This document shows, one piece after another, positions 1,154 to 54,795 of a stretch of 64,000 bases of DNA. The notes under the pieces are model-generated. The model made no database searches and was not told where the DNA came from. It worked only from the letters and a program-made list of their open reading frames with translations. Origin of the DNA: Candidatus Tritonobacter lacicola (GTDB lineage: Bacteria > Auribacterota > Tritonobacteria > Tritonobacterales > Tritonobacteraceae); assembly GCA_030765135.1 (NCBI GenBank), contig JAVCDC010000009.1:5682-69681 (forward strand). The letters run 5' to 3'. Position 1 is the stretch's first letter. Each line of letters begins with the position of its first letter. A program made the position numbers and the translations under genes.

Positions 1154-2458
1154 TTACTTTGATTCTTCAGCCTTCCGCTTATTCTCAAGTTTCCGAAGCT
1201 GTTCAAATCTCTGTCTCGCAATCTTATCTGCCCTGCGCTTTTTCTCCAGGATCTCCCGCTCTTTCTCCCTCTCCTCCTCCTCTCTCTTGATTCTATCCAG
1301 ATTCGATTTTTCCGTCTTTATCCGCCGCACCTTGAGCTCCAGTTCCCGCTCGACCAAGCGGATGTCTTCGGAGATGACTGCGTTTATGTATATGACGCTG
1401 GTGTCCAGGTCGCCGGCCTTATAGTAAAGGACTGCTATCCTGCACCGCACCCTCTGGGCCGTGATCAGCGGGGCCGTGCTCAGGGCTTCGTTGTAGTATT
1501 CGATGGCCGCCTTGGGCTTCTTCAGAAAGAACTCGTAGAGTACGGCTAGACGGTACGGCGGGATGTAGCTTTGGAGGAAGTCCTTCTCTGCCTGGAGATA
1601 TATCTTCGCCGCTTTCGAGAAGTCACCGTTTCTCGTAAGCTCCTCTCCTTCGGAGAGATAGTCTTTCAGCTTCCGGGAGATGTCCCTCTCCTGGAAGTAA
1701 TCGCTCGATTCGCGGAGGAGCTCCAGCTCGTAGTTCGCCATCTTCCTGTCCGGTTCTCCCAGATCCTTTGTCCTCACGTATGTTTGCCATAGCTTGATTG
1801 CCTCGTCTGTCTGACCCATCTTCGCATAGCATTCGGCCAGCTCGCGGTGAACGGCGAGGTCGGCCACGTACCGGGCCGAAGACACCGCGTACTCGTAGTG
1901 GCGTGTAGCTTCCTCAAGCCGGGGGAGCGACTTTTCAATGGAGGCGAGCTTCCCGCATACGGATGCCATCCGCAGCTGAACACGGGGGTTATCCGGTTCA
2001 AGGATAAGGGCCTTGTGGAACATCTCCCTGGCTCCCTCGATATCCCCCCGCTCCGACCTTCTGAGCCCCTCGTTAACGTAGTCGGTCACGGACTGTGAGC
2101 CGAGCCTCAGCTTGCCGGCCAATGCCTTATCCTTGACAAGCGGCACACCGGAAAAATCCGAGATCGCCCTGCTGAAGCACTTGTTCGCCTCGGCCTCCCT
2201 GCCAAGCTTCTCAAAACATATCCCCTTCCTGACGAGGGACTCTCCGGCAATTTCGCTTCCCCGAAGGGGGCCGTCCGTTATCTTGCTGTAGGTCCCTATG
2301 GCGTTTTCCAGGTCGCCGAGGCCTATTTCCTGGTAGAGGCCGAGATAGAAGAGGTCGCTCCCTTCCCCCATGCCGTCGCGGGGGACTGCTTCAACCGGCC
2401 GGAAAACCGTCGCGCACGCGATCAGGATCGCCGCGCATAAAGTATATGTCCTGTTCAT
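1154..2458 (-). CDS. TPR-repeat protein, secreted, with K/E-rich coiled-coil C-terminus
   Basis: Signal-peptide-like N-terminus (MNRTYTLCAAILIACATVF). Repeated A/Y/L-rich 34-aa TPR-like units (AxxYY..A......A). C-terminal ~60 aa are extremely K/E/R-rich (EKEREILEKKRRADKIARQRFEQLRKLENKRKAEESK). Confidence 0.65.
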   Translation of the reverse strand: MNRTYTLCAAILIACATVFRPVEAVPRDGMGEGSDLFYLGLYQEIGLGDLENAIGTYSKITDGPLRGSEIAGESLVRKGICFEKLGREAEANKCFSRAISDFSGVPLVKDKALAGKLRLGSQSVTDYVNEGLRRSERGDIEGAREMFHKALILEPDNPRVQLRMASVCGKLASIEKSLPRLEEATRHYEYAVSSARYVADLAVHRELAECYAKMGQTDEAIKLWQTYVRTKDLGEPDRKMANYELELLRESSDYFQERDISRKLKDYLSEGEELTRNGDFSKAAKIYLQAEKDFLQSYIPPYRLAVLYEFFLKKPKAAIEYYNEALSTAPLITAQRVRCRIAVLYYKAGDLDTSVIYINAVISEDIRLVERELELKVRRIKTEKSNLDRIKREEEEREKEREILEKKRRADKIARQRFEQLRKLENKRKAEESK

Positions 2459-3138
2459 CAGCCAACGAATTTATATCCCGCGCCGTAAACAGTGATTATA
2501 TGCGCTGGATCGTTAGGGTCCTTCTCGATTTTCTTCCTCAACTTCAGGATAAGGTTGTCCACGGTTCGTGTCGTTGGATAGACATCGAAGCCCCATATCT
2601 CGTTGAGGAGCTCCTCTCGCGTGACCACGTTGTTCCTGTGCGATATGAGGTGTTTGAGTATCTTGTTCTCGAGGGCGGTCAGCTTCGTCTTTTTCCCCCT
2701 TCTGATAACCTGGTAGCTCTCGAGGTCTATCTTGACATCTCCGAGGGAGTAATGGGTTATTTCGTCGGAGCTGATCCCGCCTCTCCTCAGGAGGGCCCTG
2801 ACCCTGGCGAGCAGCTCGCGCACGCCGAATGGCTTTGTCATATAGTCATCGGCCCCGAGCTCCAGCCCGACCACCTTGTCCACCTCCTCGCCCTTGGCGG
2901 AGAGCATGAGGATGCGGATGGAAGGCATCTTTTCCTTGATCCTGCGGCAAACGTCGTAGCCGCTGAGGTCCGGGAGCATGATGTCCAGTATAACGAGGTC
3001 GGGAACTTTTTCCACAGCCATCCGGACACCCTCCTCGCCGCTCATCGTGCAGATTGCCTCGAACCCCTGGGTCTTGAAAAAATCCTCCAGGCTGCTCAAC
3101 AACTTCTTCTCATCCTCTACGATCAGAATCCGCTCCAT
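2458..3138 (-). CDS. OmpR/PhoB-family response regulator
   Basis: Receiver motifs (ILIVEDE...DLVILDIMLPDLSGYDV...LSAKGEEVDKVVGLELGADDYMTKPF). C-terminal winged-helix (LTALENKILKHLISHRNNVVTREELLNEIWG...VDNLILKLRKKIE...YGAGYKF). Confidence 0.9.
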   Translation of the reverse strand: MERILIVEDEKKLLSSLEDFFKTQGFEAICTMSGEEGVRMAVEKVPDLVILDIMLPDLSGYDVCRRIKEKMPSIRILMLSAKGEEVDKVVGLELGADDYMTKPFGVRELLARVRALLRRGGISSDEITHYSLGDVKIDLESYQVIRRGKKTKLTALENKILKHLISHRNNVVTREELLNEIWGFDVYPTTRTVDNLILKLRKKIEKDPNDPAHIITVYGAGYKFVG

Positions 3139-3150: not shown

Positions 3151-5376
3151 TTATATTTCAGGACGCCGGCGTATCGGCAGAACAATAGTGAAAACACTTC
3201 CCTCGTCTCTCCTGCTCTGTACACGAACTTCTCCGCCATGGGCCTCGGCAACGTGCTTGACAATGGCGAGGCCGATACCGGCACCCTTTCCCGAAAGCTT
3301 AGCCGTTTCCTTCGGGCGATAAAACTGATCGAAAATCCTGTCTATATCTTCCGGGGCGATCCCGATCCCCCTGTCCTTCACGCTGATTGTTATGTTGCCT
3401 TCCTTCCGGCGCAGCTCCACCCACACCGTTTTCTCCTCCCGGGAGAATTTGACGGCGTTATCCAGGAGGTTGATCAACGCCTGGCTGATCGCGTCCGCGT
3501 CTATCTCGAGGCTGGGGATGTCCTCGTCCGTCCTGTACACGATGTCGAAGCCTTCAGACCTTACATATTGGCGGAACGCCCTGACGGTATTCAATATAGT
3601 CTCCCCGATGGCTGTGGATCCGAAATTATACGTCTTTCTTGCCGCTCCAATCATGGAGAAGTCCAGGACGTTGTCGATAAGCCTTGAAAGCCTCTCGCTC
3701 TCGGACGCGATGAGCCTGAAATACTCCTGCTCCTTCTCGCGGCTGGAGACCGCGCCCATTTCGAGCATCTCGCCGACGGCCCTGATTGTCGCGAGCGGTG
3801 TCCGCAGCTCGTGGGAGACGCGGGAGACGAAATGGCTCTTGAGCCTGGCAAGCTCGGTATCCCTCTTTATCGAGCGATGGATCATATAAATGCCGAGAAA
3901 AACGACCACTGCAAGAAAAAATATAGAAGTGAGCCGCGTCATCCTTTCTTTACTGGCGACCTCGAAGAGAAGACCCTGTTTTTTATAGGAGATCCTGACT
4001 GCCCATGACGGCAAGGCGGGGGCAAGGGTTTCCGTTTTTTCGTAGCCCGAGCTTGAGGCCGCGTCGCCGGCAGCAGCCACTACATCCCCGGTGGGATCAA
4101 GCACGGTTACATTGACATCGCCTTCGGATTCGACCATCTCCTCCAGGACATCTCTGACCTCTCTACTGAGGGCGGCTTTATCAAGCACAACAGCGATCAC
4201 GATCCGCCTGCCCGTATCGCTCGCCGCCAGGGCACTGCAGAGGAGGAGGACCTCCTCTCCGTCAATGACTATCGATACCGGCCTGAATTCCTGCGCCGAT
4301 TTCCCATCCTCTCCCAGCAGCCTCTGGAAATCAAAGCGGGCGGCTGCCCCGAGGGCCCCCATTTCCTGCGCCGATCTCTTCCTGTCCAGCCACAGCCCCA
4401 GGAGGTCCTCGTACTCCGGCCCGTATCGCCGGAGAAGCCTCTCGGAGCCCAGCAGCTTGTCCATCTCCCCATCTACCATCGAGGCGTAAAAGACGGCTTC
4501 GTGGACGTTGCCGGCAAGCTCTCCGCCGGCAAGAGCTCTCATGATATCCAGAAGGCGCTCGGCCGCGCTGCTCTCGTATCCCAGTATCCTGTCTATAACC
4601 GCCAGCTGGTACAGCGGCAGGAGCTTGAGTGAAAGGCCGCCGCAGAAGACGATGGCTTCCCTTTTTCGCATGATTTCCCTGTAATATTTTTGCGCCTCCC
4701 TGTATTTTCCCATTTTAAAGAAGCACCGCGCGACCGCGTTATCCGCCAGGGCCCTGCACTCTGTCGCTTCGCCGATGTCGAGTGCCCGCTTGTAATCCGC
4801 GACGGCTCCCACCGGGTCGTTTGAGCCGAACTCCTTTCTGCTCCCATCCTTCATCGCCTGGAAGAATTTATCGTTCTCCCTGTCCGACGCGCTCGCTATG
4901 CCGGCAGATGGGACCTTCTCCCCCGCCGTGCCGAATGGGAATAGCGGCAGGAGACGGTGGTCCAGGATAAAAAAGCTCTTGAACACGGGGCACGCTTCAA
5001 CCGCCTCGGAGATCTCTTCCACTATCTCATTCAGGGGCTGGTCCGCGCAGATGCGTTCGTCGAGATCGGTTTCGCAGCCGGCCAGGCCTGCGGTCGCCAT
5101 TTTTTTTAAAGCAAGCCCGAACCTCTCCAGATGGCCTTCGATTTTTTTTCCAATGTCCTCCGTCTCCTTCACCACCACGGATCGTACGGTAAGGTAGGCG
5201 AGGGGTATCGTGGGTAAAAGAACGCAGAGGACGAAGAGGAGGATCAGCCGCCCCCTCCTCAGCCTGCCGAAGATCGATAAGAGTTTTTTCGATATCAACA
5301 GATCAGCTCCATATGCCGGAAATGGCCAGACCGCAGGATGGGCATTTTCCCTCTCGCATACGATTCTTTGAGACAA
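3151..5376 (-). CDS. sensor histidine kinase with large TPR-like extracytoplasmic sensor region
   Basis: TM segment near the N-terminus and a second TM (FFLAVVVFLGIYMI) before the HisKA H-box (SHELRTPLATIRAVGEML). HATPase_c N/G boxes (NLLDNAVKF...DRGIGIAPEDIDRIFDQFYR...GAGIGLAIVKHV). The ORF's annotated 5' end overlaps the next gene by 74 nt, so the true start may be further downstream (see the rejected entry at 5303..5376). Confidence 0.85.
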   Translation of the reverse strand: MSQRIVCERENAHPAVWPFPAYGADLLISKKLLSIFGRLRRGRLILLFVLCVLLPTIPLAYLTVRSVVVKETEDIGKKIEGHLERFGLALKKMATAGLAGCETDLDERICADQPLNEIVEEISEAVEACPVFKSFFILDHRLLPLFPFGTAGEKVPSAGIASASDRENDKFFQAMKDGSRKEFGSNDPVGAVADYKRALDIGEATECRALADNAVARCFFKMGKYREAQKYYREIMRKREAIVFCGGLSLKLLPLYQLAVIDRILGYESSAAERLLDIMRALAGGELAGNVHEAVFYASMVDGEMDKLLGSERLLRRYGPEYEDLLGLWLDRKRSAQEMGALGAAARFDFQRLLGEDGKSAQEFRPVSIVIDGEEVLLLCSALAASDTGRRIVIAVVLDKAALSREVRDVLEEMVESEGDVNVTVLDPTGDVVAAAGDAASSSGYEKTETLAPALPSWAVRISYKKQGLLFEVASKERMTRLTSIFFLAVVVFLGIYMIHRSIKRDTELARLKSHFVSRVSHELRTPLATIRAVGEMLEMGAVSSREKEQEYFRLIASESERLSRLIDNVLDFSMIGAARKTYNFGSTAIGETILNTVRAFRQYVRSEGFDIVYRTDEDIPSLEIDADAISQALINLLDNAVKFSREEKTVWVELRRKEGNITISVKDRGIGIAPEDIDRIFDQFYRPKETAKLSGKGAGIGLAIVKHVAEAHGGEVRVQSRRDEGSVFTIVLPIRRRPEI

Positions 5377-7696: not shown

Positions 7697-7781
7697 AAGA
7701 CCGGATTCCTATTCCACTACCTCATATTAACTCAAAAGGAAAATCAGAACAACTTTTTTTATGCGAACCACGCCTGTATTT

Positions 7782-8609
7782 CTACCCTTTGACTACTTTA
7801 CCGCCTCCCGAGGCTGAACGTAATCTCTCCAGGGTTTCATTAATAATTTCTATTGAGGCTCTATCCAGCTTTCTCCTGTATGCGAGCTGGTCCCCATCGA
7901 ACATCTCATCGATCCAGGCATCGTACCCGATCTCCCGGATGCGCCCTGCGTGGAAGCCCGGTGTCTCGAACTCGAGGCCCTCCGTCTCTATATAGCCGGG
8001 CGGGAATCCGCTCATTTTGGCGAGCAGCGGCCACTCCGTATCGGTGGAGCCGAAATCATCGGAGACAGATTGCTTTAAAATGATCTCTCCAACATTCCTC
8101 CTGAAGCTCGAGCATCCCGATGCCACATCCAGCTTCCAGCCGAGCTCACGGGATATCGCCGCGTTAGTGCTCGATTCCGGCTCCCTCTGCTGTGCGGGAT
8201 GGGTCCCGAACGCCCTTTCGGTTCTCCCGATAATGAGAAAGTCATTCGCGGGTACGTCCGTCCCGAGGACGGTTATCAGCTCATCTTTGTATGAGAGGAT
8301 CCAGTGGATGAGCCTGTCGAAATCGAGGTGCAGGATGAAATCGGCCCCCTCCTGAACCGCCATGCTCACCGCGAGGCGCCTCCCCCTCCCCATCTTTTGC
8401 TCCCAGCTTGCGGGCTTCGCCACCGCAATCGCGTTCGGCAGCCTATCTATCGAGCCGATGGTCTCCCCGGCTGTCCTCTCCGTCGCGACGGCACATACGG
8501 CACTGAAGAGTGACGAGATCGCCGGACCACAACTCCGGACGAAAGGAGCCATTCGCCCTTCAGCGTCATGGAGCGTCGTTGCAAGGACTATCTTTTGCTG
8601 TGCAACCAT
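7782..8609 (-). CDS. hypothetical protein (possibly a nucleotide-sugar/glycosyl transferase-like fold)
   Basis: 275-aa ORF with same-strand neighbours and no confident motif. The D-rich stretch (ILHLDFDRL) is only suggestive. Confidence 0.4.
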   Translation of the reverse strand: MVAQQKIVLATTLHDAEGRMAPFVRSCGPAISSLFSAVCAVATERTAGETIGSIDRLPNAIAVAKPASWEQKMGRGRRLAVSMAVQEGADFILHLDFDRLIHWILSYKDELITVLGTDVPANDFLIIGRTERAFGTHPAQQREPESSTNAAISRELGWKLDVASGCSSFRRNVGEIILKQSVSDDFGSTDTEWPLLAKMSGFPPGYIETEGLEFETPGFHAGRIREIGYDAWIDEMFDGDQLAYRRKLDRASIEIINETLERLRSASGGGKVVKG

Positions 8610-8858: not shown

Positions 8859-9653
8859 TCAAGTTTTGTCCACAATGCGAAGAGGCTGCGGATTATCCTC
8901 CGGAATTTTCAGCGCCGGCACCCGCTGTCTATTCCTGGTCCGCACAGGGCGAAGGAGCCGGGCTAAAAAGAGCCACAGAAGGACCTTCCCCATCCCGAGA
9001 ATGGTAAGAGGCCTGGTAACGCTTTCGACCCTTCCTGCCTTAACAGCCGCCACGACGCTCCCCGGATCGTCCTTTTCCGACTCCACCAGCGAGAATGAGC
9101 GGCCGAACTGGAAGAAGAAGTGGGCGTCCGACGTCCCCACGAGCGGCAATCCATAACGCCGTGCGTACCGCTCCGCTTTCTCATTGAGGTTAATATGCTG
9201 CGAGTAGAAATGCGACGCCTCCAGTGCGTCGAAGAGGTGGAGGTTCTCCTTGAGGCTCTTCCCGAGACACACCCTGGCCCTATGGAACGGATGGGGAGCT
9301 ATGATGAGGGTCTCATCGTCCTTGATTTTCTCCAGCTCTTCGAATGTCCCGATCCTCTTATCGAGCTTATTCCCACGCAGCCTTGAGTTGATGACCAGGA
9401 CGTGCTTCCCCCTCACCGATATCTCCGAGCCCGGTAAAAGAAGAATCCCCCTCCTCCAGGCGTACTTCTTAAGTTCGTCATCGAAGGTGACAATATTATG
9501 GTTGGTAATCGAGAGAACATCGAAGCCGAGCTTCGCCGCCACATTGATTAACTCCCGCGCGGACATCTCTGCAACGTCCTCGGGATCCTCCGCCGTGTGG
9601 ACATGTAAATCGCATTTTATTGGGGACACTCTTTGGAACTCCTTGCCAAACAA
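8859..9653 (-). CDS. PHP-domain metal-dependent phosphoesterase
   Basis: N-terminal CDLHVHT...SARELINVAAKLGFDVLSITNHN, the PHP (polymerase/histidinol phosphatase) His-rich motifs. Later PHPFH and SDAHF metal ligands. Confidence 0.75.
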   Translation of the reverse strand: MFGKEFQRVSPIKCDLHVHTAEDPEDVAEMSARELINVAAKLGFDVLSITNHNIVTFDDELKKYAWRRGILLLPGSEISVRGKHVLVINSRLRGNKLDKRIGTFEELEKIKDDETLIIAPHPFHRARVCLGKSLKENLHLFDALEASHFYSQHINLNEKAERYARRYGLPLVGTSDAHFFFQFGRSFSLVESEKDDPGSVVAAVKAGRVESVTRPLTILGMGKVLLWLFLARLLRPVRTRNRQRVPALKIPEDNPQPLRIVDKT

Positions 9654-9657
9654 TGAG

Positions 9658-10347
9658 TTATCTGGAAACTATTTTAGGAGGGCGCCCGGTCCTCGGTCTT
9701 GGACGCCCCTGCCTAATACCCATTGCCATTAAAAAACTCTCGCTTCCTAATACGTCAGTGTTGCTTTTAAAATATTTTTCTTCCGCAATCGCCTTTTCCT
9801 TATCCAGCAACCACTCCCTGTAAGCTTTCCGTCTTTCCTCGACGGTAGTTCCCATTGCCGTCCATTCGGGATCGGGAGTAACGAGCGGATCGTTTTCACC
9901 CAATACGTAAAACCGAGCGCTCGACCATGGCCATTCCCAGGGGACGGTCACCAGGCCGGCTCTCACTGGGTTTCTCTCCACATAACGAGCGCATGCAAGA
10001 AGATAAGAAGATTGCTCTATGGCTTGGCTTTTAAATCTGCTTTGGAACAATCGCCCTGCCGTATTATATCGCTTATGGTACCTCCTCGCGTAAACTTGCT
10101 GCAGGCCTCCAATAGCCTTAGAGAGACTCCAAAAATCTCTCAACTTTAAAATTAAGTGAAAGTGATTATGCATAACACACCAATGATAAATGGAAAATTC
10201 AAAGAGTTGCGCGTATCTGGCTACTATTTTCAGGAAGGAATTGACATCCCTTTGATCATGGAAGATGTCATGCTTGAGAATGCCGCGGTTTATAATATGG
10301 TAAACCAATGAGTCGCTGAGTTTATATTTTCTTGCCGTTCGAGGCAT
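9658..10347 (-). CDS. IS200/IS605-like HuH Y1 transposase homolog (RAYT-like, 229 aa)
   Basis: YHIINRG...HWCVMHNHFHLILKL (HuH motif) and downstream catalytic-Tyr region (YLLACARYVERNPVRAGLV). Longer than classical IS200 TnpA, as seen in REP-associated or domesticated Y1 transposases. Confidence 0.75.
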   Translation of the reverse strand: MPRTARKYKLSDSLVYHIINRGILKHDIFHDQRDVNSFLKIVARYAQLFEFSIYHWCVMHNHFHLILKLRDFWSLSKAIGGLQQVYARRYHKRYNTAGRLFQSRFKSQAIEQSSYLLACARYVERNPVRAGLVTVPWEWPWSSARFYVLGENDPLVTPDPEWTAMGTTVEERRKAYREWLLDKEKAIAEEKYFKSNTDVLGSESFLMAMGIRQGRPRPRTGRPPKIVSR

Positions 10348-10411
10348 AAGATTATCCTATCACAGAACCGGAGCTGAGCAAATAGTTTCCAGTTAATACT
10401 TTGTGCCGTAA

Positions 10412-10645
10412 TTAGTTGCCAAGAGTGTCCCCAATTTTCCGCCCCCCGAAAGGAAACGGATCACGCCCTATCTCGCCCTCCCTCCCCTTCCGGAGATAGT
10501 TGTTCACGTAGCGAAGGCACTCCCCCCGCGAGTATCCCTCGACCACGAAACCCAGCGCGTCTCCGAGAGCCTGGCCTATGAGACAGCCGCTGTATTGTTC
10601 TTCCCGGGGTACTTCCACATATTTGCTTGCCGTTTTTACCATCAA
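10412..10645 (-). pseudogene. truncated ADP-ribosylglycohydrolase (N-terminal fragment only, 77 aa)
   Basis: GCLIGQALGDALGFVVEG is the conserved N-terminal motif of the ADP-ribosylglycohydrolase (DraG/ARH) family. Full-length proteins are ~300 aa. The ORF stops after 77 aa and abuts the transposase homolog. Confidence 0.55.
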
Positions 10646-10756
10646 GTGGTATTATAACATTGCTGCTTTGGAATTTTTATAAAGCAGATATCTCCGGCGA
10701 AGCCGGAGAATTAATAAATTCGCGAACGAAGTGAGCGAATTTATGATCTTTGATAT

Positions 10757-11141
10757 GGGGGCGAAAAGGTTTCGACTGATCTAGGAAACCGGTAGCGGCA
10801 TGCAGAGGTTGAGAGGAGGCCTCTTCCCGAAAGGGACCCTGAGCTTGTCGAAGGGTAAAACACCTCTCACACCAAGTAACTGCAGACGAGCAGTTCGCAC
10901 TAGCTGCTTAAGCAGCTACGTCCACGGGTCCGGCCTGCGGGGCCCGGATGGACGACCGGAGCAGGCTGGCCTCGAACCCGAGCCACCGGGGCAAGAGGCG
11001 AGATCGTCTTCGTGGAGGCTAGTTCTCCGTAGGTCCTGTCCGCCGGAGTTGCGGAGAGCGAATGAAAAAGACGGACTAAGCATGTAGAGGCTTCCGGTGA
11101 CATATTTCAGGACGCGGGTTCGATTCCCGCCGCCTCCACCA
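10757..11141 (+). ncRNA. ssrA: tmRNA (SsrA)
   Basis: 5' GGGGGCGAAAAGGUUUCGAC and 3' tRNA-like end GGACGCGGGTTCGATTCCCGCCGCCTCCACCA. Internal tag reading frame GCA GAC GAG CAG TTC GCA CTA GCT GCT TAA encodes ADEQFALAA* (canonical ...ALAA tail). smpB lies immediately downstream on the opposite strand. Confidence 0.9.
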
Positions 11142-11191: not shown

Positions 11192-11662
11192 TTATTTATT
11201 GCGCAGGGCCCTTTCAATGTCCCGCTCCATCTCCCTCTTCTGTATGTTATCGCGACGGTCGTAGAGTTTCTTGCCCCTGGCTACCGCCATCTCGACCTTA
11301 GCCCGTCCCCTCTTGAAGTACATCGACAGCGGCACAAGTGTGTACCCCTTTCGTGAGATCAAGCCGAAGAGCCGTTTTATCTCCCTCTTGTGGAGAAGGA
11401 GCTTCCGCTTTCTATACGGGTCCAGGTTAAAAACGCCGCCCTGTTCATACGGGCTGATGTGCATGTTGTGGAGAAAGACTTCGCCGCTCTCGACCACGCC
11501 GTAGCTGTCCCTCAGGTTGCCCTTTCCCTGGCGCAGTGACTTCACCTCGCTTCCCACGAGCTCTATTCCGGCCTCGTAGGTCTCAAAGATGTGATATTCC
11601 CACCGCGCTCTCCTGTTTGCGACGATGACTTTCCTTCCCGCATCGCCAGTCGCCGGGCACAT
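11192..11662 (-). CDS. smpB: SsrA-binding protein SmpB
   Basis: ORF 11192..11719; probable start at the internal Met (MCPATGD..., giving ~156 aa). Conserved SmpB stretches: IANRRARWEYHI, GIELVGSEVKSLR, GVFNLDPYRKRKLLLHKREI, and C-terminal K/R tail. Confidence 0.9.
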   Translation of the reverse strand: MCPATGDAGRKVIVANRRARWEYHIFETYEAGIELVGSEVKSLRQGKGNLRDSYGVVESGEVFLHNMHISPYEQGGVFNLDPYRKRKLLLHKREIKRLFGLISRKGYTLVPLSMYFKRGRAKVEMAVARGKKLYDRRDNIQKREMERDIERALRNK

Positions 11663-11837
11663 ATTAAACCTCCAGTATACTGCAATCACATTGTATGATA
11701 CTCCAGCCCCCCGGTTCATAGAACGACTTTTTGACCGGTGGCGTCCGCGGCTTCAGGATTACAAAGAGGAACCACTATTTTCACGTATAAATTTGCATTT
11801 GACATCGGATGAAGCCGTCCCTATATTCACGTCAGGC

Positions 11838-27826: not shown

Positions 27827-27937
27827 AGTTTTTCTATTTTAACAAATCATCCCAAGGCAGTGCCGGATGCGGCTAAATCTGCCTTCGGCAGATTTGACGC
27901 AGAACCGCCCACCTTTCCCAACTTAAGTTCAAGAGTT

Positions 27938-28015
27938 GGTCGGGGCGCCGGGATTTGAACCCGGGGCCTCCTGCTCCCAAAGCAGGCGCGCTAAACCGGA
28001 CTGCGCCACGCCCCG
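27938..28015 (-). tRNA. tRNA-Pro (TGG)
   Basis: Reverse complement reads CGGGGCGTGGCGCAGTCCGGTTTAGCGCGCCTGCTTTGGGAGCAGGAGGCCCCGGGTTCAAATCCCGGCGCCCCGACCA. Anticodon loop TTTGGGA gives anticodon TGG; CCA is encoded. Confidence 0.8.
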
Positions 28016-28157
28016 ATTTTCTCCATACCATTAGGTTCTGCAATACTTTTTACTAATGAAACCGCCTTATTGCCCCCTCTTCACTTCGTTCATCGGGATC
28101 TAAGAATTTCATGGTATTTAGCTTCGCTACGCTCGCTAAATACCTGAACTTCTAAGA

Positions 28158-28191
28158 CGGACTGCGCCACGCCCCGATTTTCTCCATACCA
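28158..28191. repeat. 34-bp direct repeat of the tRNA-Pro 5' end plus upstream flank (second copy; first copy 27997..28030)
   Basis: CGGACTGCGCCACGCCCCGATTTTCTCCATACCA occurs identically at 27997..28030 and 28158..28191. Copy 1 spans the first ~19 nt of the tRNA (minus strand) plus 15 nt upstream. The ~127-bp spacer is AT-rich. Confidence 0.85.
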
Positions 28192-32731: not shown

Positions 32732-33643
32732 TTATTTTTTCCACTTCTTCAGCATTCGCCCCTTCAGCTTGGGAATCAAGCCCAGCACCCCGTATTTTTC
32801 AAACCGCCTGTATGTCAGGTAGAACAATTCGCGGGTGAACCCGAACTTGTTGCATATCTGTCCGATATGGGGCTTCCCGTTGGTGGCAGCCGCCCTCATC
32901 ATCTCGAGCTTGACCTGTATCCTGTCGTTCGGATTGATGAGATTTTTCAACGTGTATCTCTTGGCCTTCGTGATCTTTCCTTCCCCAGGCTGCTGCCCCG
33001 GCTGGAGGACCTTCTTGTGTTCGAGGCGGACCTTCCCCCCCAGCTCCTTCTGCAGCCCGATGTGGGATTTTCCAAAAAGCCCGTACACGCCGAACTTTTT
33101 CATCCTTCTGTCGAAGACATAGAAATCATGGCGGCTGAAGCCGAAGAGCCGGCTCATCTTGTTTATATCCGCCCCGGGCGTCGCGTATATGCCCCTGACG
33201 AACTCGTATCTCCTGAGGATCTCGTCGGTTTCAATCGGATAGCTGTACTTTCCGTTCCTCCAGATCAACCGGGAAAAATGGGAGCGTATGTTGGCGTCGA
33301 CCCTCTCCAGCAGTTTTTTCGCGCTGAAAGGCTTGCAGATGTAATCGGATGCGCCGCGCTTCATCACCTCGACGGCCACCTCCTCGGAGCCCCTCCCGGT
33401 CAGCATGATTACCACCACCTCGGGCATGAACTTTTTCACCTCGGTGAGCACTTCGATTCCATCGATGATGGGCATCGCATAATCCAGGATGATGACCATC
33501 GGTGACCTCTCGCGGACAATCGCCAGACCCTCTACGGAATCGGTCGCAAAAAAGGCGTCGTACCTGGCTTCCTTAAAGAGATCCTGCAGCAGCTGGCAGA
33601 GTTCTATCTCGTCGTCGATTATCAAAATTTTCTTTTTCGCCAT
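32732..33643 (-). CDS. atypical response regulator: receiver domain fused to tandem MerR-type HTH-like repeats
   Basis: Receiver motifs (KILIIDDE...VIILDYAMPIIDGIEVL...MLTGRGSEEVAVEVMKRGASDYICKPF). C-terminal half contains two ~33-aa repeats (INKMSRLFGFSRHDFYVFDRRMKKFGVYGLFGK / IGQICNKFGFTRELFYLTYRRFEKYGVLGLIPK) resembling MerR/excisionase HTH cores (GVSxxTLRYYExxGLL). Confidence 0.7.
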   Translation of the reverse strand: MAKKKILIIDDEIELCQLLQDLFKEARYDAFFATDSVEGLAIVRERSPMVIILDYAMPIIDGIEVLTEVKKFMPEVVVIMLTGRGSEEVAVEVMKRGASDYICKPFSAKKLLERVDANIRSHFSRLIWRNGKYSYPIETDEILRRYEFVRGIYATPGADINKMSRLFGFSRHDFYVFDRRMKKFGVYGLFGKSHIGLQKELGGKVRLEHKKVLQPGQQPGEGKITKAKRYTLKNLINPNDRIQVKLEMMRAAATNGKPHIGQICNKFGFTRELFYLTYRRFEKYGVLGLIPKLKGRMLKKWKK

Positions 33644-33783
33644 AACTTCATCTCCTTGCTATATCGCTTGAGACCCGACCGCGCCGGCCAGGAGCGTTGC
33701 TGCCCTTCGCCGGTGCTCGAGTCCCGTCCCAATGTTACCATATTTTCTGCGCCGGGCCTGTTCCAAACAAGCCTTATTCCAGT

Positions 33784-40687: not shown

Positions 40688-40888
40688 CTACTTTCTGCCG
40701 TACTTCCTGCGGAACTTTTCAACCCTTCCGGCCGTATCGATATACTTCTGTTTCCCGGTAAAGAAAGGATGGCACTTCGAGCAGATACCGACCTTTATGT
40801 TCTCCTTCGTGGAACGGGTTTGTATAACCTCGCCGCAGGCGCAGGAGATCGTCGTATCAACGTACTCTGGATGGATACCCTTTTTCAT
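40688..40888 (-). CDS. rpmE: 50S ribosomal protein L31 (zinc-binding type)
   Basis: MKKGIHPEY...CACGEV...[16 protein letters not shown] listed from 40900; the start is more likely at MKKGIHP. Confidence 0.9.
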
Positions 40889-41007
40889 AAATTCGCTCAC
40901 TACGTTCGCTAATTTAGCTCAATTCCCAATCAATAACGTAAAGGTAACACGGGCTTTTTAAAAATAGCAACCCCTTAATTAAAAACCAGAAACCAGTAAC
41001 TGTCTTT

Positions 41008-49321: not shown

Positions 49322-49993
49322 CTATTTCGTTATAAGCCTTCTGATGCAGTCGGCGGTGTTCTCGGCATGGTCGGCGATCCGACCCAGCTCGCGCATGAGG
49401 TTCATGAGGAATATCACGGTTACAGGATCCAGCTTGTCCTCTATGCTGAAAAGGGTTTTTGCAAAGCGAAACTGGACCTGATCGGTCAGCCACTCTTCCT
49501 TCTGGACATGCTCGATAAGCTCGATAACCTCTTCGAGCTTCTCTGTGGACGATGGATTCTCGAGGAGGTCAATCATCTTCAGGTCGGCCCTGGATACGGC
49601 TTCAACGGCGTCCTTGACCTTATCAACAAGCTCGAGAATATCCTCTTTCAGTTCTCCGGGCAGCTTCGTTTTCCTCACCGTGAGAAGCCGGGCGACATCC
49701 TGACACGAGTCGGCAATACCGTCCTGTTGGCTGAGAAGGGTAAGAATGTCCCCCCTGTTGCTGGAGCCGAATATGCTCTTCGTGAAGCTCTCCCGTATCC
49801 CTCTCTTGATGATATCCGCGTCGTGCTCGAGCCTGCAAGTTTCCTCCATCAACTCTTCGATCTTCTCATGGTCCCCTGCTATGAAGCTTTCGATGATTGA
49901 ATCCAGCAGGCCCAGGCAATCCATGACCTTCAACATGTGTTCGTAGATCGGACCATAGGCGGGGCGACCGAACAATCCACCGATTTTTTTCAT
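49322..49993 (-). CDS. DUF47-family (PhoU-like, TIGR00153) phosphate-transport regulator
   Basis: ~220-aa all-helical protein, MKKIGGLFG...EHMLKVMDCL...RLEHDADIIKRGIRE..., in the usual position next to a phosphate transporter gene. Confidence 0.65.
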   Translation of the reverse strand: MKKIGGLFGRPAYGPIYEHMLKVMDCLGLLDSIIESFIAGDHEKIEELMEETCRLEHDADIIKRGIRESFTKSIFGSSNRGDILTLLSQQDGIADSCQDVARLLTVRKTKLPGELKEDILELVDKVKDAVEAVSRADLKMIDLLENPSSTEKLEEVIELIEHVQKEEWLTDQVQFRFAKTLFSIEDKLDPVTVIFLMNLMRELGRIADHAENTADCIRRLITK

Positions 49994-51666
49994 TTGCTTT
50001 TCCTCCCGATTACAAGCCTGGCAATGGCCAGTACATGTTCGTTGATTCTATCATAATCGGTGAGGATATCTAAATAAATCGGGCTCGTCTCTATGGCCTC
50101 TTTCAACCCCTTCCTGAGCCTCCCGAGGTGGGCGAGCCTGAGATCTCCCTTCCAGATATGGATGTTCTTTCCCTTCGAGAGGGCCCTTCGCGCCAGCTCC
50201 GCGTCCCCCGACTTGAACGCCTCGAGGACCGACGAGAAGTTACGGAGCACGGCTTTGTGATAGCGCGATAGGTCGTTCTCCCCTTCGATCGAGAAGCAAA
50301 GGTCCGCCTCCATTCTCTTTCGCGCCAGAGGAGCCAGGCCCTTGCTCACAACGTCCCCGATGTTCTCGAGCTCGTCCGTTATGTGGACAAGGGCGGAGAC
50401 TTCGGATGACTCGCCCCCGTCAAGCCTCCTCTGCGAAATCATGACGAGGTACTTCGAGATCTCCCGGTAGAGGAAATCCGCCCTCATGTCCTCCCTCACT
50501 ATATCCTCTATCACTGTCGTGCTCTCGCAGGTGACGACCTTGAAGCTTTCCCTCAGCATCTCCCGGACGATTCCGCCCAGCCTCTCGATTTCCTTTCCCG
50601 CCTGCGTCAGGGCCATGACGGGGGAGTTGAGAAGCCTCTGGTCCAGGTAAACAACCTTCTCCACCTCTACCTGCTTCCTCCCCGGCGCGATCCGGATAAT
50701 GACCTTCGTCATGATTCCAGTAAAGCCGATGAATATGAGCGTATTGAGGACGTTGAACAGCGTGTGGGCGTTGGCAACGAGCCGTTCCGGGCTGGCCTTG
50801 CCGTAGCCCCCGAGAAAGAGCGCCGTCACCCATTCGGTCAGACGGGCGAATGGTCCTATCCAGAACATGAAAATCACCACACCGGCCACCTTGAAGAACA
50901 GGTGGGCAAAGGCAACCCTTTTCGCATTGATGTTCGCGCCGATGCTGCCCAGGAGGGCCGTGGCGCACGTCCCGATATTGGCGCCGAAGATGATGGGAAT
51001 GGCCGCCTGGAGTGGAAGCAGGGAGGTCCCGTCGGGCAGGGTCTGGGACGCGAGGGTCAGCGCGAGAGCTATCGTAGCGGCGCTCGACTGTATGATTGCC
51101 GTGAAGGCCGTGGAGACGGCAAGGCCCAGGAGCGGCCCCAGGGCAGGCCTCCGGCTCAGTACAAGGAGCATATTAACAAACTTCTCGTTCTCTTTCAGGG
51201 GGACGACACCTTCCTTCATGACCGCCATCCCGTAGAATATAAAACCGAATCCCATCAGCACGCGACCCATGTACTTCCACTTCTCGTACCTGCTCAGCAT
51301 GGATATCAGAAGGCCGGCTGCGAGCATGAGAAGGGCGTAATCGGTCACCTTGAAGGCGATAAGCTGGATGGTGAGCGTCGTTCCGATATCAGCGCCGAGA
51401 ATTACGCCCATCGTCTGAGCGAGGCTCATCAGCGAGGCGTTGACGAAGCTGACGAGCATCACAGTCGTCGCGCTGCTCGACTGTGTGCACATGGTTAGGA
51501 ATATGCCCACGCCGACGCCCAGGAACCTGTTCGAGGTGAATATTCCCAGGATCGTCTTCAGCCTGCTGCCGGCGACCTTCTGGAGCCCCTCGCTGGTCAG
51601 CTGCATCCCGTATATAAAGAGTGCAAGCCCGCCGGCAAGGAAACAGGTTATCTTCATCCAGCCCAT
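49990..51666 (-). CDS. Na+/Pi-cotransporter family protein (NptA-like) with C-terminal PhoU-like domains
   Basis: Repeated Na/Pi cotransporter motifs (GADIGTT, QSSSATT/QSSAATIA, GANIGTCATALL). The C-terminal ~200 aa are a helical PhoU-like repeat region. Confidence 0.85.
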   Translation of the reverse strand: MGWMKITCFLAGGLALFIYGMQLTSEGLQKVAGSRLKTILGIFTSNRFLGVGVGIFLTMCTQSSSATTVMLVSFVNASLMSLAQTMGVILGADIGTTLTIQLIAFKVTDYALLMLAAGLLISMLSRYEKWKYMGRVLMGFGFIFYGMAVMKEGVVPLKENEKFVNMLLVLSRRPALGPLLGLAVSTAFTAIIQSSAATIALALTLASQTLPDGTSLLPLQAAIPIIFGANIGTCATALLGSIGANINAKRVAFAHLFFKVAGVVIFMFWIGPFARLTEWVTALFLGGYGKASPERLVANAHTLFNVLNTLIFIGFTGIMTKVIIRIAPGRKQVEVEKVVYLDQRLLNSPVMALTQAGKEIERLGGIVREMLRESFKVVTCESTTVIEDIVREDMRADFLYREISKYLVMISQRRLDGGESSEVSALVHITDELENIGDVVSKGLAPLARKRMEADLCFSIEGENDLSRYHKAVLRNFSSVLEAFKSGDAELARRALSKGKNIHIWKGDLRLAHLGRLRKGLKEAIETSPIYLDILTDYDRINEHVLAIARLVIGRKSK

Positions 51667-52602: not shown

Positions 52603-54699
52603 CTACACCTCCCCCATAACCGCGTACGCTATGTTTGTCGCGAACGACAGGAGCCTTCTCAATCCGGACATGAGGCTCATGTGGAGGGTGCTCGTTTCGA
52701 CGGACTCGGGATGTCCCTTCGCGAGCCTCTCGAAGTGCGCCTTGGTGTATTGCTTCTCGAGCTTTACCAGGTTCTGCTTCCTCAGCGTCACTTCCTCGGC
52801 CAGCTTCGTGTTGTTCTCCTTGAAGGCGGTCGTCGCGTCCCTGACGTCCCTGGCGACCTTGTCCCCGAAGTCCCGGAGTTGTTCCCACCCCTCGGGAGAG
52901 AAAAAGAGGTTGCGCTCCATGAACTCCTCCGTCATGGGGAGGATATCCTGGCTGACCACCTTTCCGATCTCATGGTACTCGTTAAGTATGTTCATGAGGA
53001 TGAGAACGCGCTTGGACTGGGCCACGTTAAGCTCCCTGGAGCCGATCTTCGCCAGGTAGGGCCTTATCACGTTCTCGAGTATCACGACGTGATTTTCCTC
53101 CTGTATGAGCCCCTCCACGAACTCTTCGTCCTTCTTCTTGAACGCCTCGATGGCGCTGTCGCTCATGCGGACGGCTATGTCGGCCAGGCGTCCCAGCTCC
53201 TTCTCCGTCTGCTCGATCGCCGCCTGGGGCGTCGCGGTGAGGTCGCTCACGATGTATTTCGGCTTGAACATCTCCTCCTTCTCCTTGACCTCCGGCAGCA
53301 CCTTCATGACCACGTTGGCAAAGAGGTGGCTGAAGGGGAGGAAGATGAGGGCCATCGCGACGTTGAAGATCGTGTGGGCGTTGGCTATCTGGCGTGTGAT
53401 CGACCCCCCCATTTTCAGCACGATCATCGCCAGGTAGTCCTGGCCGGCTATCCAGCGCCCCATGTAGGTGAATAAGACCATGAAGAGCACGACCCCCGCC
53501 ACTTTAAACATGGTGTGGGCCATTGCCACCCGCTTGGCTGACCGCGAGGTGCCGATACACGCCAGGGCGGCGGTGACCGTGGTCCCGATGTTCGCGCCGA
53601 AGATAATCGGTATTGCGGCATCGATGCCGATGATCCCCTGGGACGCGAGGCCCAGGGCGATGGCTATGGTGGCCGCGCTCGACTGTATGACGGCGGTGAG
53701 CGCCGTCGAGACAAGCAGTCCCAGCAGGGGGTTGGCCGTGGACGCCCTCAGCGCGTTGACAAACGGCTCGTACTTGGCGAGCGGTTTCATCGACCCTCCC
53801 ATGACCTTGAGGCCGTAGAAGAGAAGGCCGAAGCCCATGAGGACCTTACCCAGGTAGTTGAAGGTCTTGTTCTTGGTGAAGAAGGTGAAGACGAAGCCAA
53901 AGAAGACGAAGCCGAGGGCGTACTGGCCGACGTCGAAAGCTATGAGCTGAACGGTCAGCGTCGTCCCGATGTCCGCCCCGAGTATCACGCCGATCGTCTG
54001 CGCCATGGTCATCAGGCCCGAGTTGACAAAGCCCACGAGAAGGACCGTCGTCGCGCTGGATGACTGGAGAATGAAGGTTATGACGATGCCCGAGATGAGT
54101 GCGATCACCCTGTTCCTGGTAAAGAATCCCAGGACGGCCTGCATCTTCTCCCCCACCCATTTCTGGAGAGAGTCCCCCATCAGGTTCATGCCGAAGATGA
54201 ACATCCCCAGCCCGCCGAGGAGCGTGAGAATAATAATGAGCATAACGCCCGCCTTATTCTCGAAATACGGGGGCTTTCCCGCGAGCTCATTGCCCTCGAG
54301 GCTCGCCGAAACGCCGTAGGACCCCGCCTTGCTCCCGAGCTGATAGGGAACTGCGGCTACGCCCTCGGCGTTCGTCTTGACGATGATATCGTGGGGGACC
54401 TTCTCCCCCGTGCTTCCGAGGAACGCGCTGGGCGTGGTCCTCTCTTTCTTCATCTTGCTCGGCTTGGCTGGATCGTGCTCGATGTAGAAGTGGACGGGTA
54501 TGCCGGCGGCGGGGCCGCCCGCCTCGTCCTCCACCAGGAGCTTGATCTCGATGATCTCCCCGACGAGCCTGAAAGCGCCGCTGCTTCCCTTCATCACCTC
54601 GGCCGTGTATCGGCCGGGGTCTGCGTACACAGCACCCGAAAACAGTGCACAGCATAGAAGACTTAATAAGATGGCCCTTTTCAACGAAGAGAAGCGCAT
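52603..54699 (-). CDS. Na+/Pi-cotransporter family protein paralog with N-terminal extracytoplasmic beta-rich domain and C-terminal PhoU-like domain
   Basis: Signal peptide (MRFSSLKRAILLSLLCCALFSGAVYA) and ~120-aa beta-rich segment (GSSGAFRLVGEIIEIKLLVEDEAGGPAAGIPVHFY...) precede the transporter core (QSSSATT..GADIGTT..GANIGTT). The PhoU-like tail resembles the standalone gene. Confidence 0.8.
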   Translation of the reverse strand: MRFSSLKRAILLSLLCCALFSGAVYADPGRYTAEVMKGSSGAFRLVGEIIEIKLLVEDEAGGPAAGIPVHFYIEHDPAKPSKMKKERTTPSAFLGSTGEKVPHDIIVKTNAEGVAAVPYQLGSKAGSYGVSASLEGNELAGKPPYFENKAGVMLIIILTLLGGLGMFIFGMNLMGDSLQKWVGEKMQAVLGFFTRNRVIALISGIVITFILQSSSATTVLLVGFVNSGLMTMAQTIGVILGADIGTTLTVQLIAFDVGQYALGFVFFGFVFTFFTKNKTFNYLGKVLMGFGLLFYGLKVMGGSMKPLAKYEPFVNALRASTANPLLGLLVSTALTAVIQSSAATIAIALGLASQGIIGIDAAIPIIFGANIGTTVTAALACIGTSRSAKRVAMAHTMFKVAGVVLFMVLFTYMGRWIAGQDYLAMIVLKMGGSITRQIANAHTIFNVAMALIFLPFSHLFANVVMKVLPEVKEKEEMFKPKYIVSDLTATPQAAIEQTEKELGRLADIAVRMSDSAIEAFKKKDEEFVEGLIQEENHVVILENVIRPYLAKIGSRELNVAQSKRVLILMNILNEYHEIGKVVSQDILPMTEEFMERNLFFSPEGWEQLRDFGDKVARDVRDATTAFKENNTKLAEEVTLRKQNLVKLEKQYTKAHFERLAKGHPESVETSTLHMSLMSGLRRLLSFATNIAYAVMGEV

Positions 54700-54795
54700 A
54701 GCGACCTCCATAACGTTAATATTTTCAAAGAAAAGTTCCGTGTATAAGCATATCTGCCTCCCCGCACCCGCCTTTCAATAGCGCGGTTCCCCGCG

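What the first reader, a model, noticed from the sequence alone, without database searches (positions are those of the whole stretch)
32732..33643. Response regulator whose output is two tandem MerR/excisionase-type HTH-like repeats
After a canonical receiver domain, the C-terminal half contains two clearly related ~33-aa repeats (…FGFSRHDFYVFDRRMKKFGVYGLF… / …FGFTRELFYLTYRRFEKYGVLGLI…) whose pattern matches the DNA-recognition helix region of MerR/Xis-type HTHs (GVSxxTLRYYExxGLL). Receiver domains fused to a tandem MerR-like duplication are not one of the common RR output classes (OmpR, NarL, NtrC, LytTR and others), so this may represent a rare or undescribed output architecture. No cognate kinase is adjacent; the neighbours are a YifB ATPase and a lipoprotein.
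Basis: seen in the sequence. Interest (0 to 1): 0.6.

Follow-up and report, generated by a model that had tools for sequence, protein, structure and literature searches.

The report
Response regulator with twin transposase-type HTHs
This gene encodes a two-component response regulator whose DNA-binding half is two copies of a helix-turn-helix module otherwise seen in insertion-sequence transposases; this undescribed architecture was found only in the uncultured candidate phylum Auribacterota.

Summary
ORF 32732-33643 (-) encodes a 303-aa protein with a canonical receiver domain and two homologous C-terminal repeats (BLASTP E 2e-9; profile-profile E 2e-16; 0/5000 shuffles). Each repeat is about 55-60 aa, a complete three-helix HTH, not about 33 aa.

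The MerR/excisionase reading is wrong. Repeat 2 matches Pfam HTH_28, the transposase-type HTH, above threshold. Repeat 1 is a diverged copy. No MerR or HTH_17 signal appears, and the model shows no wing or coiled coil.

"Rare, undescribed output architecture" is supported. About 40 protein clusters among 5.8 billion carry it. All named sources are Auribacterota, one locus per MAG in 23 MAGs. No histidine kinase was seen next to it in any of the 23 genome loci or in the window. Databases call it "response regulator" or, wrongly, "OmpR family".

The same module, with its D-x5-(Y/L)E-x2-R lead-in, occurs in tandem at the N-terminus of about 800-aa DDE transposases of bona fide IS elements.

Most likely mechanism, inferred: an orphan, phosphorylation-controlled transcription factor. 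One chain reads a bipartite site with two recognition helices and a basic KKKGRP-like tail. Targets and kinase are unknown.

Verdict: new variant of a known kind, moderate interest.

The parts
32732..33643 (-). Whole gene: 303-aa response regulator, REC + 2 x HTH_28-like module + basic tail (stop codon 32732-32734)
   Evidence: ORF list. Pfam REC and HTH_28. 40-member family alignment. AlphaFold2 model pLDDT 87.8, pTM 0.84.
33652..33657 (-). Shine-Dalgarno-like AAGGAG, 8 nt upstream of the ATG
   Evidence: Read directly from the sequence. The start agrees with orthologue N-termini, M-x-x-K-K-I-L-I-(I/V)-D-D-E.
33299..33628 (-). Receiver (REC) domain, residues 6-115
   Evidence: PF00072 E 2e-26. 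Foldseek matches to solved receiver domains at rmsd 1.1-1.6 A. Across 40 sequences: D10 39/39 aligned (one member N-truncated), D11 37, D54 38, T82 40, Y101 40, K104 40.
33482..33484 (-). Codon of Asp54, the predicted phospho-acceptor
   Evidence: It aligns to the acceptor Asp of the REC profile. D in 38 of 40 family members and E in 2.
33236..33298 (-). Long helix alpha5 and connector, residues 116-136, with invariant N130, Y133, Y135, P136
   Evidence: Helix 108-126 in the model. Invariant columns.
33068..33235 (-). HTH module 1, residues 137-192: helices 141-154, 160-167, 171-189 (predicted recognition helix)
   Evidence: Homologous to module 2. Sub-threshold HTH_28 hits in relatives. pLDDT ~87-94. 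Net charge +5.
32936..33067 (-). Inter-module linker, residues 193-236: short conserved helix 194-200, then a variable low-confidence segment (~205-230)
   Evidence: Model pLDDT 55-67, below 50 at 219-224. Least conserved region of the alignment.
32768..32935 (-). HTH module 2, residues 237-292: helices 241-254, 260-267, 271-289 (predicted recognition helix)
   Evidence: PF13518 HTH_28 E 2.9e-7, 30.9 bits, above the 25-bit gathering score. pLDDT ~94-97. Net charge +6.
32735..32767 (-). Basic C-terminal tail, residues 293-303 (LKGRMLKKWKK; family consensus KKKGRP...)
   Evidence: Net charge +7 over residues 290-303 here, family mean +5.5. Disordered in the model. The G-R(-P) motif is conserved in the alignment.

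Best explanation
The gene encodes an orphan, phosphorylation-controlled DNA-binding response regulator of a lineage-specific family, REC-(HTH_28-like)x2, found only in Candidatus Auribacterota.

Proposed mechanism:
1. An unlinked histidine kinase, or a small phosphodonor, phosphorylates Asp54 in a fully canonical receiver pocket (D10, D11, D54, T82, Y101, K104).
2. The usual T82/Y101 switch changes the alpha4-beta5-alpha5 surface and the long alpha5/connector. This changes how the C-terminal unit is presented, or promotes dimerisation.
3. The C-terminal unit consists of two homologous three-helix HTH modules in one chain. It binds DNA by placing recognition helices 171-189 and 271-289 into two major-groove positions of a bipartite site. 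Both helices carry the invariant R-x2-F-Y ... G-x2-G signature. The basic tail adds minor-groove or backbone contacts, as GRP-type linkers do in transposase DNA-binding domains.
4. The outcome is transcriptional regulation of an unknown regulon.

Shown here: domain identities, the duplication, conservation of phosphorylation residues and of both HTHs, the restricted distribution, the orphan status, and homology of the module to the tandem N-terminal HTHs of IS transposases. Inferred: DNA binding, the bipartite binding mode, phosphorylation control, and transcriptional output.
For: REC is canonical, with conserved catalytic and switch residues.

Repeat 2 matches HTH_28 above threshold. Repeat 1 is homologous to it and gives sub-threshold HTH_28 hits in relatives.

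Both modules are equally constrained, with identical invariant positions D140/240, E147/247, R150/250, R171/271, F174/274, Y175/275, G185/285 and G188/288. Both carry net charge about +4 family-wide. The tail is +5.5 while REC is -4.

The AlphaFold2 model is confident. Full length gives pLDDT 87.8 and pTM 0.84. The C-terminal half alone gives pLDDT 83.5 and pTM 0.82. It shows two three-helix bundles.

About 40 full-length family members share one architecture and a length of 285-324 aa. 23 loci were found in 23 Auribacterota/PVC MAGs spanning at least two classes.

No kinase was seen next to the gene in the window or in any of the 23 genome loci.

The same module occurs in tandem at the N-terminus of DDE_Tnp_1 transposases. 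One of these sits in an IS bounded by a perfect 16-nt terminal inverted repeat. That is the position where transposases carry their end-binding domains.
Against: No DNA target was found. 210-bp upstream regions of 18 orthologues share no motif beyond AT-rich words.

No solved or viral predicted structure matches the tandem unit significantly. The best hits are weak single-HTH matches such as the TnsB N-terminus, probability ~0.5.

Repeat 1 of the window protein has no Pfam hit on its own.

No member of the family, and no transposase carrying this module, has been studied experimentally as far as the searchable literature shows.
Confidence: 0.7

Rival explanations
1. One reading: the output is a tandem MerR/excisionase-type HTH. 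This would imply MerR-like DNA distortion or Xis-like architectural binding.
For: Only the visual similarity of 'FGFSRxxFYxxxRRxxxxGVxGL' to the MerR helix-turn-helix consensus. There is no tool support.
Against: No MerR, MerR_1 or HTH_17 hit at E<=10 for the protein, either half, or 6 further repeat-1 sequences. HTH_28 is above its gathering score. The model has a helix preceding the HTH, making it tri-helical. It has no beta-wing and no C-terminal coiled coil.
Confidence: 0.03
2. The tandem HTH is a transposase-derived module that still acts on a mobile element. The protein would be a phosphorylation-controlled regulator or inhibitor of transposition that binds IS ends, not a host transcription factor.
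For: The nearest non-REC relatives of the module are N-termini of DDE transposases of real IS elements. Truncated transposase N-termini commonly act as transposition inhibitors (general knowledge).
Against: The gene occurs at one locus per MAG. It lies among housekeeping genes that differ between subclades but are stable within them. It is conserved at ~40-47% identity across two classes. No copy of the related transposase or of the module exists elsewhere in the 64-kb window. The one host contig examined for such an IS has a different composition from the Auribacterota MAG of the same sample, GC 34% vs 49%.
Confidence: 0.07
3. One or both HTH-like modules are protein-interaction surfaces rather than DNA readers. 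For example, the regulator could dock on a sigma factor or RNA polymerase subunit, or module 1 could serve only as an intramolecular regulatory partner of REC.
For: Repeat 1 is more diverged from HTH_28 than repeat 2. The high pTM of the full-length model suggests fixed inter-domain packing. In one subclade the gene follows fliA (sigma-28), PilZ and CheX genes.
Against: Both modules keep the same invariant recognition-helix residues and a positive net charge. The flagellar neighbourhood is confined to one subclade, and the family also occurs in species reported to lack flagella (PMC9324843).
Confidence: 0.12
4. The receiver is a phosphorylation-independent (atypical) domain, and the protein is a constitutive or ligand-controlled regulator. 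This would fit the absence of a partner kinase.
For: No kinase lies nearby in any genome. Two family members, P0143 and P0144, have D54E and D11N.
Against: In the window protein and 38 of 40 members the full D-D-D-T-Y-K set is intact. Orphan regulators with unlinked kinases are common (general knowledge of two-component systems).
Confidence: 0.08

Closest known systems
Pfam HTH_28 (PF13518), with the related HTH_29/HTH_23/HTH_32: N-terminal DNA-binding HTHs of IS481/IS630/IS3-type and other transposases
   Same: Repeat 2 scores above the HTH_28 gathering threshold. It is a tri-helical HTH whose third helix ends in G-x-x-G-L and is followed by a basic GR(P) stretch. The nearest non-REC relatives are transposase N-termini that also carry two copies of the module with the same D-x5-(Y/L)E-x2-R lead-in.
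   Different: There is no DDE catalytic domain and no HTH_32-type second subdomain after each module. The modules are fused to a receiver domain. The gene occurs at one locus per MAG in housekeeping context, not in an IS.
YesN/AraC-type response regulators (REC + AraC-family domain with two HTH motifs)
   Same: The concept is the same: a receiver domain controls one polypeptide that carries two HTH units, so it can read two adjacent major-groove sites as a monomer (knowledge of MarA/Rob-type AraC domains).
   Different: There is no homology. No HTH_18/HTH_AraC match appears beyond one chance-level 0.093 hit in a relative. Here the two HTHs are clear sequence repeats separated by a ~45-residue, partly disordered linker. 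They are not two halves of one compact 100-aa domain.
OmpR/PhoB-family response regulators (the label JGI gives some members)
   Same: The receiver domain is most similar to those of PhoB, YycF and NtrX-type regulators.
   Different: There is no Trans_reg_C winged-helix domain. The 'OmpR family' database label is therefore wrong.
Lineage-specific response-regulator output domains catalogued by Galperin and co-workers (e.g. archaeal HalX, MetOD, NitrOD; PMC5847659)
   Same: The phenomenon is the same: a standard REC domain joined to an output domain confined to one lineage and unannotated in general databases.
   Different: This case is bacterial (Auribacterota). The output is a recognisable HTH duplication with transposase relatives, and it is not in that catalogue.
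Paired domain of Pax proteins / bipartite DNA-binding domain of Tc1-mariner transposases
   Same: By analogy only: two tri-helical HTH subdomains in one chain, joined by a linker, read a bipartite site. This is a transcription-factor DNA-binding domain evolutionarily tied to transposases (textbook knowledge).
   Different: It is eukaryotic and no sequence relationship was tested. In the paired domain the two subdomains are not detectable sequence repeats of each other.

Membership tests
Two-component response regulator (REC, PF00072) | Receiver-domain profile match above the curated threshold | tested here: met
   92.7 bits vs a 30.2 cutoff, residues 6-115. Foldseek rmsd 1.1-1.6 A to solved receivers.
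Two-component response regulator (REC, PF00072) | Acidic pocket, phospho-acceptor Asp, and switch Thr, aromatic and Lys residues | tested here: met
   D10, D11, D54, T82, Y101 and K104 are present. They are invariant or nearly so in 40 family members.
Two-component response regulator (REC, PF00072) | Phosphotransfer from a cognate histidine kinase | not testable with these tools
   No kinase was seen next to the gene here or in the 23 genome loci. A partner cannot be identified from sequence alone.
HTH_28 (PF13518) transposase-type HTH | Profile match above the gathering score, repeat 2 | tested here: met
   30.9 bits vs 25, residues 245-296. Also annotated in 39 of 40 family members.
HTH_28 (PF13518) transposase-type HTH | Profile match above the gathering score, repeat 1 | tested here: inconclusive
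   The window's repeat 1 has no hit. Relatives score 17.5-20 bits, below 25. It is nonetheless homologous to repeat 2 at hhalign E 2e-16.
HTH_28 (PF13518) transposase-type HTH | Three-helix bundle with helix-turn-helix | tested here: met
   Helices 141-154/160-167/171-189 and 241-254/260-267/271-289 at high pLDDT.
MerR family / excisionase HTH_17 | Profile match to MerR, MerR_1 or HTH_17 | tested here: not met
   No such match at E<=10 for the whole protein, either half, or six repeat-1 orthologues.
MerR family / excisionase HTH_17 | Winged HTH followed by a long antiparallel coiled-coil dimerisation helix (MerR) or a wing (Xis) | tested here: not met
   The model shows no beta-hairpin wing and no long C-terminal helix after either HTH.
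OmpR/PhoB family response regulator | C-terminal Trans_reg_C winged-helix domain | tested here: not met
   No PF00486 match. The window's true OmpR-type regulator at 2458..3138 does have one.
AraC/YesN-type response regulator | HTH_18/HTH_AraC output domain | tested here: not met
   No match in the window protein. A single 0.093 hit in one relative's repeat 1 is at chance level.
IS transposase (DDE) | DDE catalytic domain and terminal inverted repeats | tested here: not met
   The protein ends at residue 303 with no DDE domain. No inverted repeats flank the gene. By contrast, relatives P0163, P0241 and P0316 have DDE_Tnp_1, and P0316 has a 16-nt TIR.

The most novel reading that the evidence does not exclude
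The output domain is an exapted IS-transposase end-binding domain, captured or inherited as a tandem pair. Module 1 of the regulator resembles transposase module 1 more than module 2, and module 2 likewise resembles transposase module 2. Fused to a receiver, it became a phylum-wide orphan master regulator of Auribacterota. It would read a long bipartite site, possibly IS-end-derived, as a single chain. This would be a bacterial counterpart of the transposase-to-Pax paired-domain story, placed inside two-component signalling.
Probability: 0.25. Interest if true: 0.65.

Novelty: new variant of a known kind. Interest (0 to 1): 0.45.

Why it matters
Response-regulator output domains are one of the best-catalogued parts of bacterial signalling, and additions are now mostly lineage-specific.

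This one is a clean case for four reasons:
- The receiver is fully canonical.
- The output is a statistically solid tandem HTH duplication.
- The gene occurs at one locus per genome, across at least two classes of an uncultured PVC-group phylum.
- The only detectable relatives of the output domain are transposase DNA-binding regions.

If the exaptation reading is right, it documents how a mobile-element DNA-binding domain was wired into two-component signalling. In practice it gives a named, testable candidate for a global regulator in a phylum with no genetics. It also corrects database labels ("OmpR family"). It does not change how response regulators are understood to work.

Tried and rejected
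1. MerR/Xis assignment. Rejected by Pfam scans and by the model's topology.
2. A solved structural relative.
   - PDB sequence-profile searches with the whole C-terminal half and with a single-module profile found nothing relevant.
   - Foldseek of the C-terminal model against PDB and BFVD gave no hit at E<0.001. The best were weak single-HTH overlaps with TnsB, FocB, Lrp and Mor.
   - The full-length model only retrieved receiver domains.
3. Conserved gene neighbourhood as a functional clue. None of 14 window neighbours recurs near the orthologue in the 23 genome loci. Context is conserved only within subclades.
4. A nearby cognate kinase. None was found.
5. A shared autoregulatory motif upstream of 18 orthologues. 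Only AT-rich words appeared, barely above shuffles, with no recurrent direct or inverted repeat.
6. Dispersed repeats in the window that might be binding sites. None is related to this gene.
7. Other REC fusions among the 148 nearest HTH relatives. Only family members were found.
8. The ~230-aa hits as possible 'REC + single HTH_28' regulators. They are not; they are an unknown N-terminus plus HTH_28 and HTH_32.
9. Whether the related IS lives in the same organism as a family member from the same sample. The compositions differ, so there is no support.
10. Literature on REC+HTH_28. None found.

Full report
**1. Observation**

The ORF at 32732..33643 on the minus strand is real. It encodes 303 aa from an ATG, with AAGGAG 8 nt upstream of it.

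Pfam finds a receiver domain at residues 6-115 (E 2e-26). It also finds one HTH_28 domain (PF13518) at residues 245-296, scoring 30.9 bits against a gathering score of 25. NCBIfam only recognises the receiver part, through partial matches to PhoB, NtrX, YycF and others. None comes near its cutoff.

- BLASTP of the two halves gives 35% identity over 54 residues, E 2e-9.
- The Smith-Waterman score is 81 against 22.7 +/- 4.3 for shuffles, and 0 of 5000 shuffles reach it.
- A profile-profile comparison of the two repeats across the family gives probability 98.7%, E 2e-16.

So the repeat is well beyond chance. Its unit is a whole three-helix module, not ~33 aa.

**2. What the modules are**

Nothing matches MerR, MerR_1 or the excisionase-type HTH_17 at E<=10. 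This holds for the protein, for either half alone, and for repeat 1 of six relatives.
- Repeat 2 is HTH_28, a family described by Pfam as typical of transposases.
- Relatives of this protein also hit HTH_29, HTH_23 and HTH_Tnp_1 over the same stretch.
- Repeat 1 has no Pfam hit in the window protein. In relatives it gives sub-threshold HTH_28 hits of 17.5-20 bits.

An AlphaFold2 model built on a 40-sequence family alignment is confident (pLDDT 87.8, pTM 0.84). It shows, in order:
- a standard receiver;
- a long alpha5 helix (108-126);
- a three-helix bundle (141-154, 160-167, 171-189);
- a short helix (194-200);
- a poorly ordered segment (~205-230);
- a second three-helix bundle (241-254, 260-267, 271-289);
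- a disordered basic tail.

The C-terminal half modelled alone gives the same picture (pLDDT 83.5, pTM 0.82). There is no beta-wing and no long dimerisation helix, so the MerR comparison fails on topology too.

**3. The family**

A whole-protein search of 5.8 billion clustered proteins found only four full-length relatives, at 95, 84, 83 and 46% identity. Everything else matched the receiver only.

A profile of the C-terminal half found about 40 clusters. Except for one 125-aa fragment, all are 285-324 aa with REC plus HTH_28.

An exhaustive HMMER pass over 1.84 billion representatives at 50% identity found only 5-6 representatives covering both repeats. There were 273 hits in total at E<=1e-3. 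The rest that I examined were single transposase-type HTH proteins. Among the 148 listed non-family representatives, only three further family members carry a receiver domain.

In the family alignment the phosphorylation machinery is conserved:
- D10 in 39 of 39 aligned sequences (one member is N-terminally truncated);
- D11 in 37;
- D54 in 38;
- T82, Y101 and K104 in 40 of 40.

Two members, P0143 and P0144, have D54E and D11N.

Both HTH modules carry the same invariant positions: D140/240, E147/247, R150/250, R171/271, F174/274, Y175/275, G185/285 and G188/288. Both have similar conservation and a net charge of about +4. The tail averages +5.5 and the receiver -4.

**4. Distribution and context**

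A scan of one genome per species of GTDB found 23 loci in 23 MAGs. The sources are:
- Ca. Auribacter fodinae, Ca. Erginobacter occultus and Ca. Euphemobacter frigidus;
- 'Auribacterota bacterium', UBP3 and 'PVC group bacterium';
- a few MAGs labelled Planctomycetota, Chlamydiota or simply 'uncultured bacterium'.

The named species belong to two classes of the phylum Ca. Auribacterota. I infer that the window comes from this phylum. I did not verify it with marker genes. The window's own protein occurs identically on at least 24 metagenome contigs with the same neighbours.

None of the window's 14 neighbouring genes recurs within 8 kb of the orthologue in other genomes. Neighbourhoods are conserved only within subclades:
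- flhB-flhA-flhF-flhG-fliA-PilZ-CheX upstream, with an outer-membrane efflux protein downstream;
- RadC, MBL hydrolase and XerD upstream, with a CCA/poly(A)-polymerase-like gene and TrpRS downstream;
- RecQ upstream, with a glycosyltransferase and polyprenyl synthase downstream.

No histidine kinase was seen adjacent anywhere. In the window the only kinase (3151..5376) is paired with an OmpR-type regulator (2458..3138), 27 kb away.

The flagellar neighbourhood cannot define the function. The family is also present in Ace Lake species reported to lack flagella (PMC9324843).

Public annotations are 'response regulator', 'CheY-like chemotaxis protein' or 'DNA-binding response OmpR family regulator'. 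The last is wrong, because no Trans_reg_C domain is present. I found no paper linking a receiver domain to HTH_28.

**5. Relatives of the output domain**

The non-REC hits include ~800-aa proteins (P0163, P0241; fragments P0211, P0174, P0277). They carry DDE_Tnp_1 and weak IS4/ISH3/IS1634-type matches.

Their N-termini carry two copies of the very same module, including the lead-in 'aromatic-x-x-D-x-D-x4-(Y/L)-E-x-x-R' that precedes helix 1 in both repeats of the regulator.

One such gene (P0316) lies in an element bounded by a perfect 16-nt terminal inverted repeat, which makes it a real IS.

Profile-profile scores between regulator repeats (r1, r2) and transposase modules (m1, m2) are:

| Pair | hhalign score |
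|---|---|
| r1-m1 | 86.4 |
| r2-m2 | 90.7 |
| r1-m2 | 66.6 |
| r2-m1 | 78.0 |
| r1-r2 | 78.9 |
| m1-m2 | 88.3 |

Mean pairwise scores point the same way. r1-m1 (75.9) exceeds r1-m2 (59.2), and r2-m2 (74.7) exceeds r2-m1 (65.9). This also holds without the two closest transposases. However, r1-r2 is 79.9.

The positional correspondence suggests that the tandem pair predates the split between regulator and transposase. The margins are small. In addition, the transposases have an extra HTH_32-like subdomain after each module that the regulator lacks. I therefore regard en-bloc acquisition as suggestive, not shown.

**6. Mechanism**

The best-supported reading is an orphan, phosphorylation-dependent transcription factor.

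Shown:
- a canonical receiver with an intact switch;
- two equally constrained, positively charged HTH modules plus a basic tail;
- homology to the region of transposases that normally binds IS ends.

Inferred:
- phosphorylation at D54 by an unlinked kinase;
- propagation through the alpha4-beta5-alpha5 face and the conserved connector (N130, Y133, Y135, P136);
- binding of a bipartite site by the two recognition helices of one chain, with the KKKGRP-like tail in or near the minor groove;
- possibly dimerisation, which would extend the site.

The regulon is unknown. I found no shared upstream motif in 18 orthologues. I found no related repeats in the window.

**7. Comparison and novelty**

In working principle, the protein resembles:
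- any DNA-binding response regulator;
- the AraC/YesN class in particular, which has two HTHs in one chain;
- paired-type bipartite DNA-binding domains derived from transposases.

In membership:
- It is a response regulator (met).
- Its modules belong to the HTH_28 group (met for repeat 2, by homology for repeat 1).
- It is not a MerR, OmpR, AraC or transposase family member (each tested, not met).

No solved or predicted viral structure matches the tandem unit significantly.

I rate it a new variant of a known kind: a lineage-specific response-regulator output architecture, of the sort catalogued for archaea in PMC5847659, but not described. Interest is moderate at 0.45. It would be higher if the transposase-exaptation and master-regulator readings were confirmed.

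Noticed in passing
window 9619-10435: ORF 9658..10347 (-), 229 aa, matches Pfam Y1_Tnp (IS200-like/RAYT-type tyrosine transposase, E 1.8e-15). It is bracketed by a 56-nt inverted repeat, 9619-9674 / 10380-10435, 79% complementary. It lies just upstream of the tmRNA gene (10757-11141, tag ADEQFALAA) and smpB (11192..11719).
   Followed up: partly
window 10715-10746 and 40885-40916: A 32-nt hairpin-containing sequence occurs twice in inverted orientation at 94% complementarity, both copies intergenic. It could be a REP-like element connected to the nearby Y1 transposase, or just a shared terminator.
   Followed up: no
window 27937-28191: The 5' part of tRNA-Pro(TGG) plus upstream bases (27991-28030) is repeated 161 nt away (28152-28191, 95% identical). 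The adjacent 26-28 kb region has a GC dip (0.47 vs ~0.57) and ORFs without Pfam matches.
   Followed up: no
window 2458-5376: This is the window's only histidine kinase (3151..5376, HisKA+HATPase_c). It is paired with an OmpR-type regulator (2458..3138). Further along are two paralogous Na/Pi-cotransporter+PhoU genes (49990..51666, 52603..54711), so it may be a phosphate-related system.
   Followed up: partly
P0143, P0144 (locus L006 1844-2755): Two family members have Glu instead of the phospho-acceptor Asp54, and Asn instead of Asp11. They may be phosphorylation-independent (phosphomimetic) variants of the regulator.
   Followed up: no
L001, L005, L008, L010, L012 (about 450-8000 upstream of the regulator): In the Ca. 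Auribacter fodinae/UBP3 subclade the regulator sits directly after flhB-flhA-flhF-flhG-(small ORF)-fliA-PilZ-CheX(-CheX). It sits before an outer-membrane efflux protein and a >10,000-aa giant ORF. Other subclades have entirely different, housekeeping neighbours.
   Followed up: partly
L031 1219-4141: This is an IS element encoding an 856-aa DDE_Tnp_1 transposase, whose N-terminus carries the same HTH module in tandem. It is bounded by a perfect 16-nt terminal inverted repeat (ATCAGACGATCCCACC). The transposase family only weakly matches NCBIfam IS4/ISH3/IS1634 models and appears unnamed.
   Followed up: partly
one search hits P0168, P0171, P0204, P0213, P0287 etc.: These form a group of ~220-240-aa proteins with an unannotated ~110-residue N-terminus followed by HTH_28+HTH_32. 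They are not receiver fusions, and their nature is unknown.
   Followed up: partly
JGI annotations of P0122, P0128, P0132, P0139, P0304: Members of this family are labelled 'DNA-binding response OmpR family regulator', although they lack the OmpR-type Trans_reg_C domain. This is an annotation error that propagates.
   Followed up: yes
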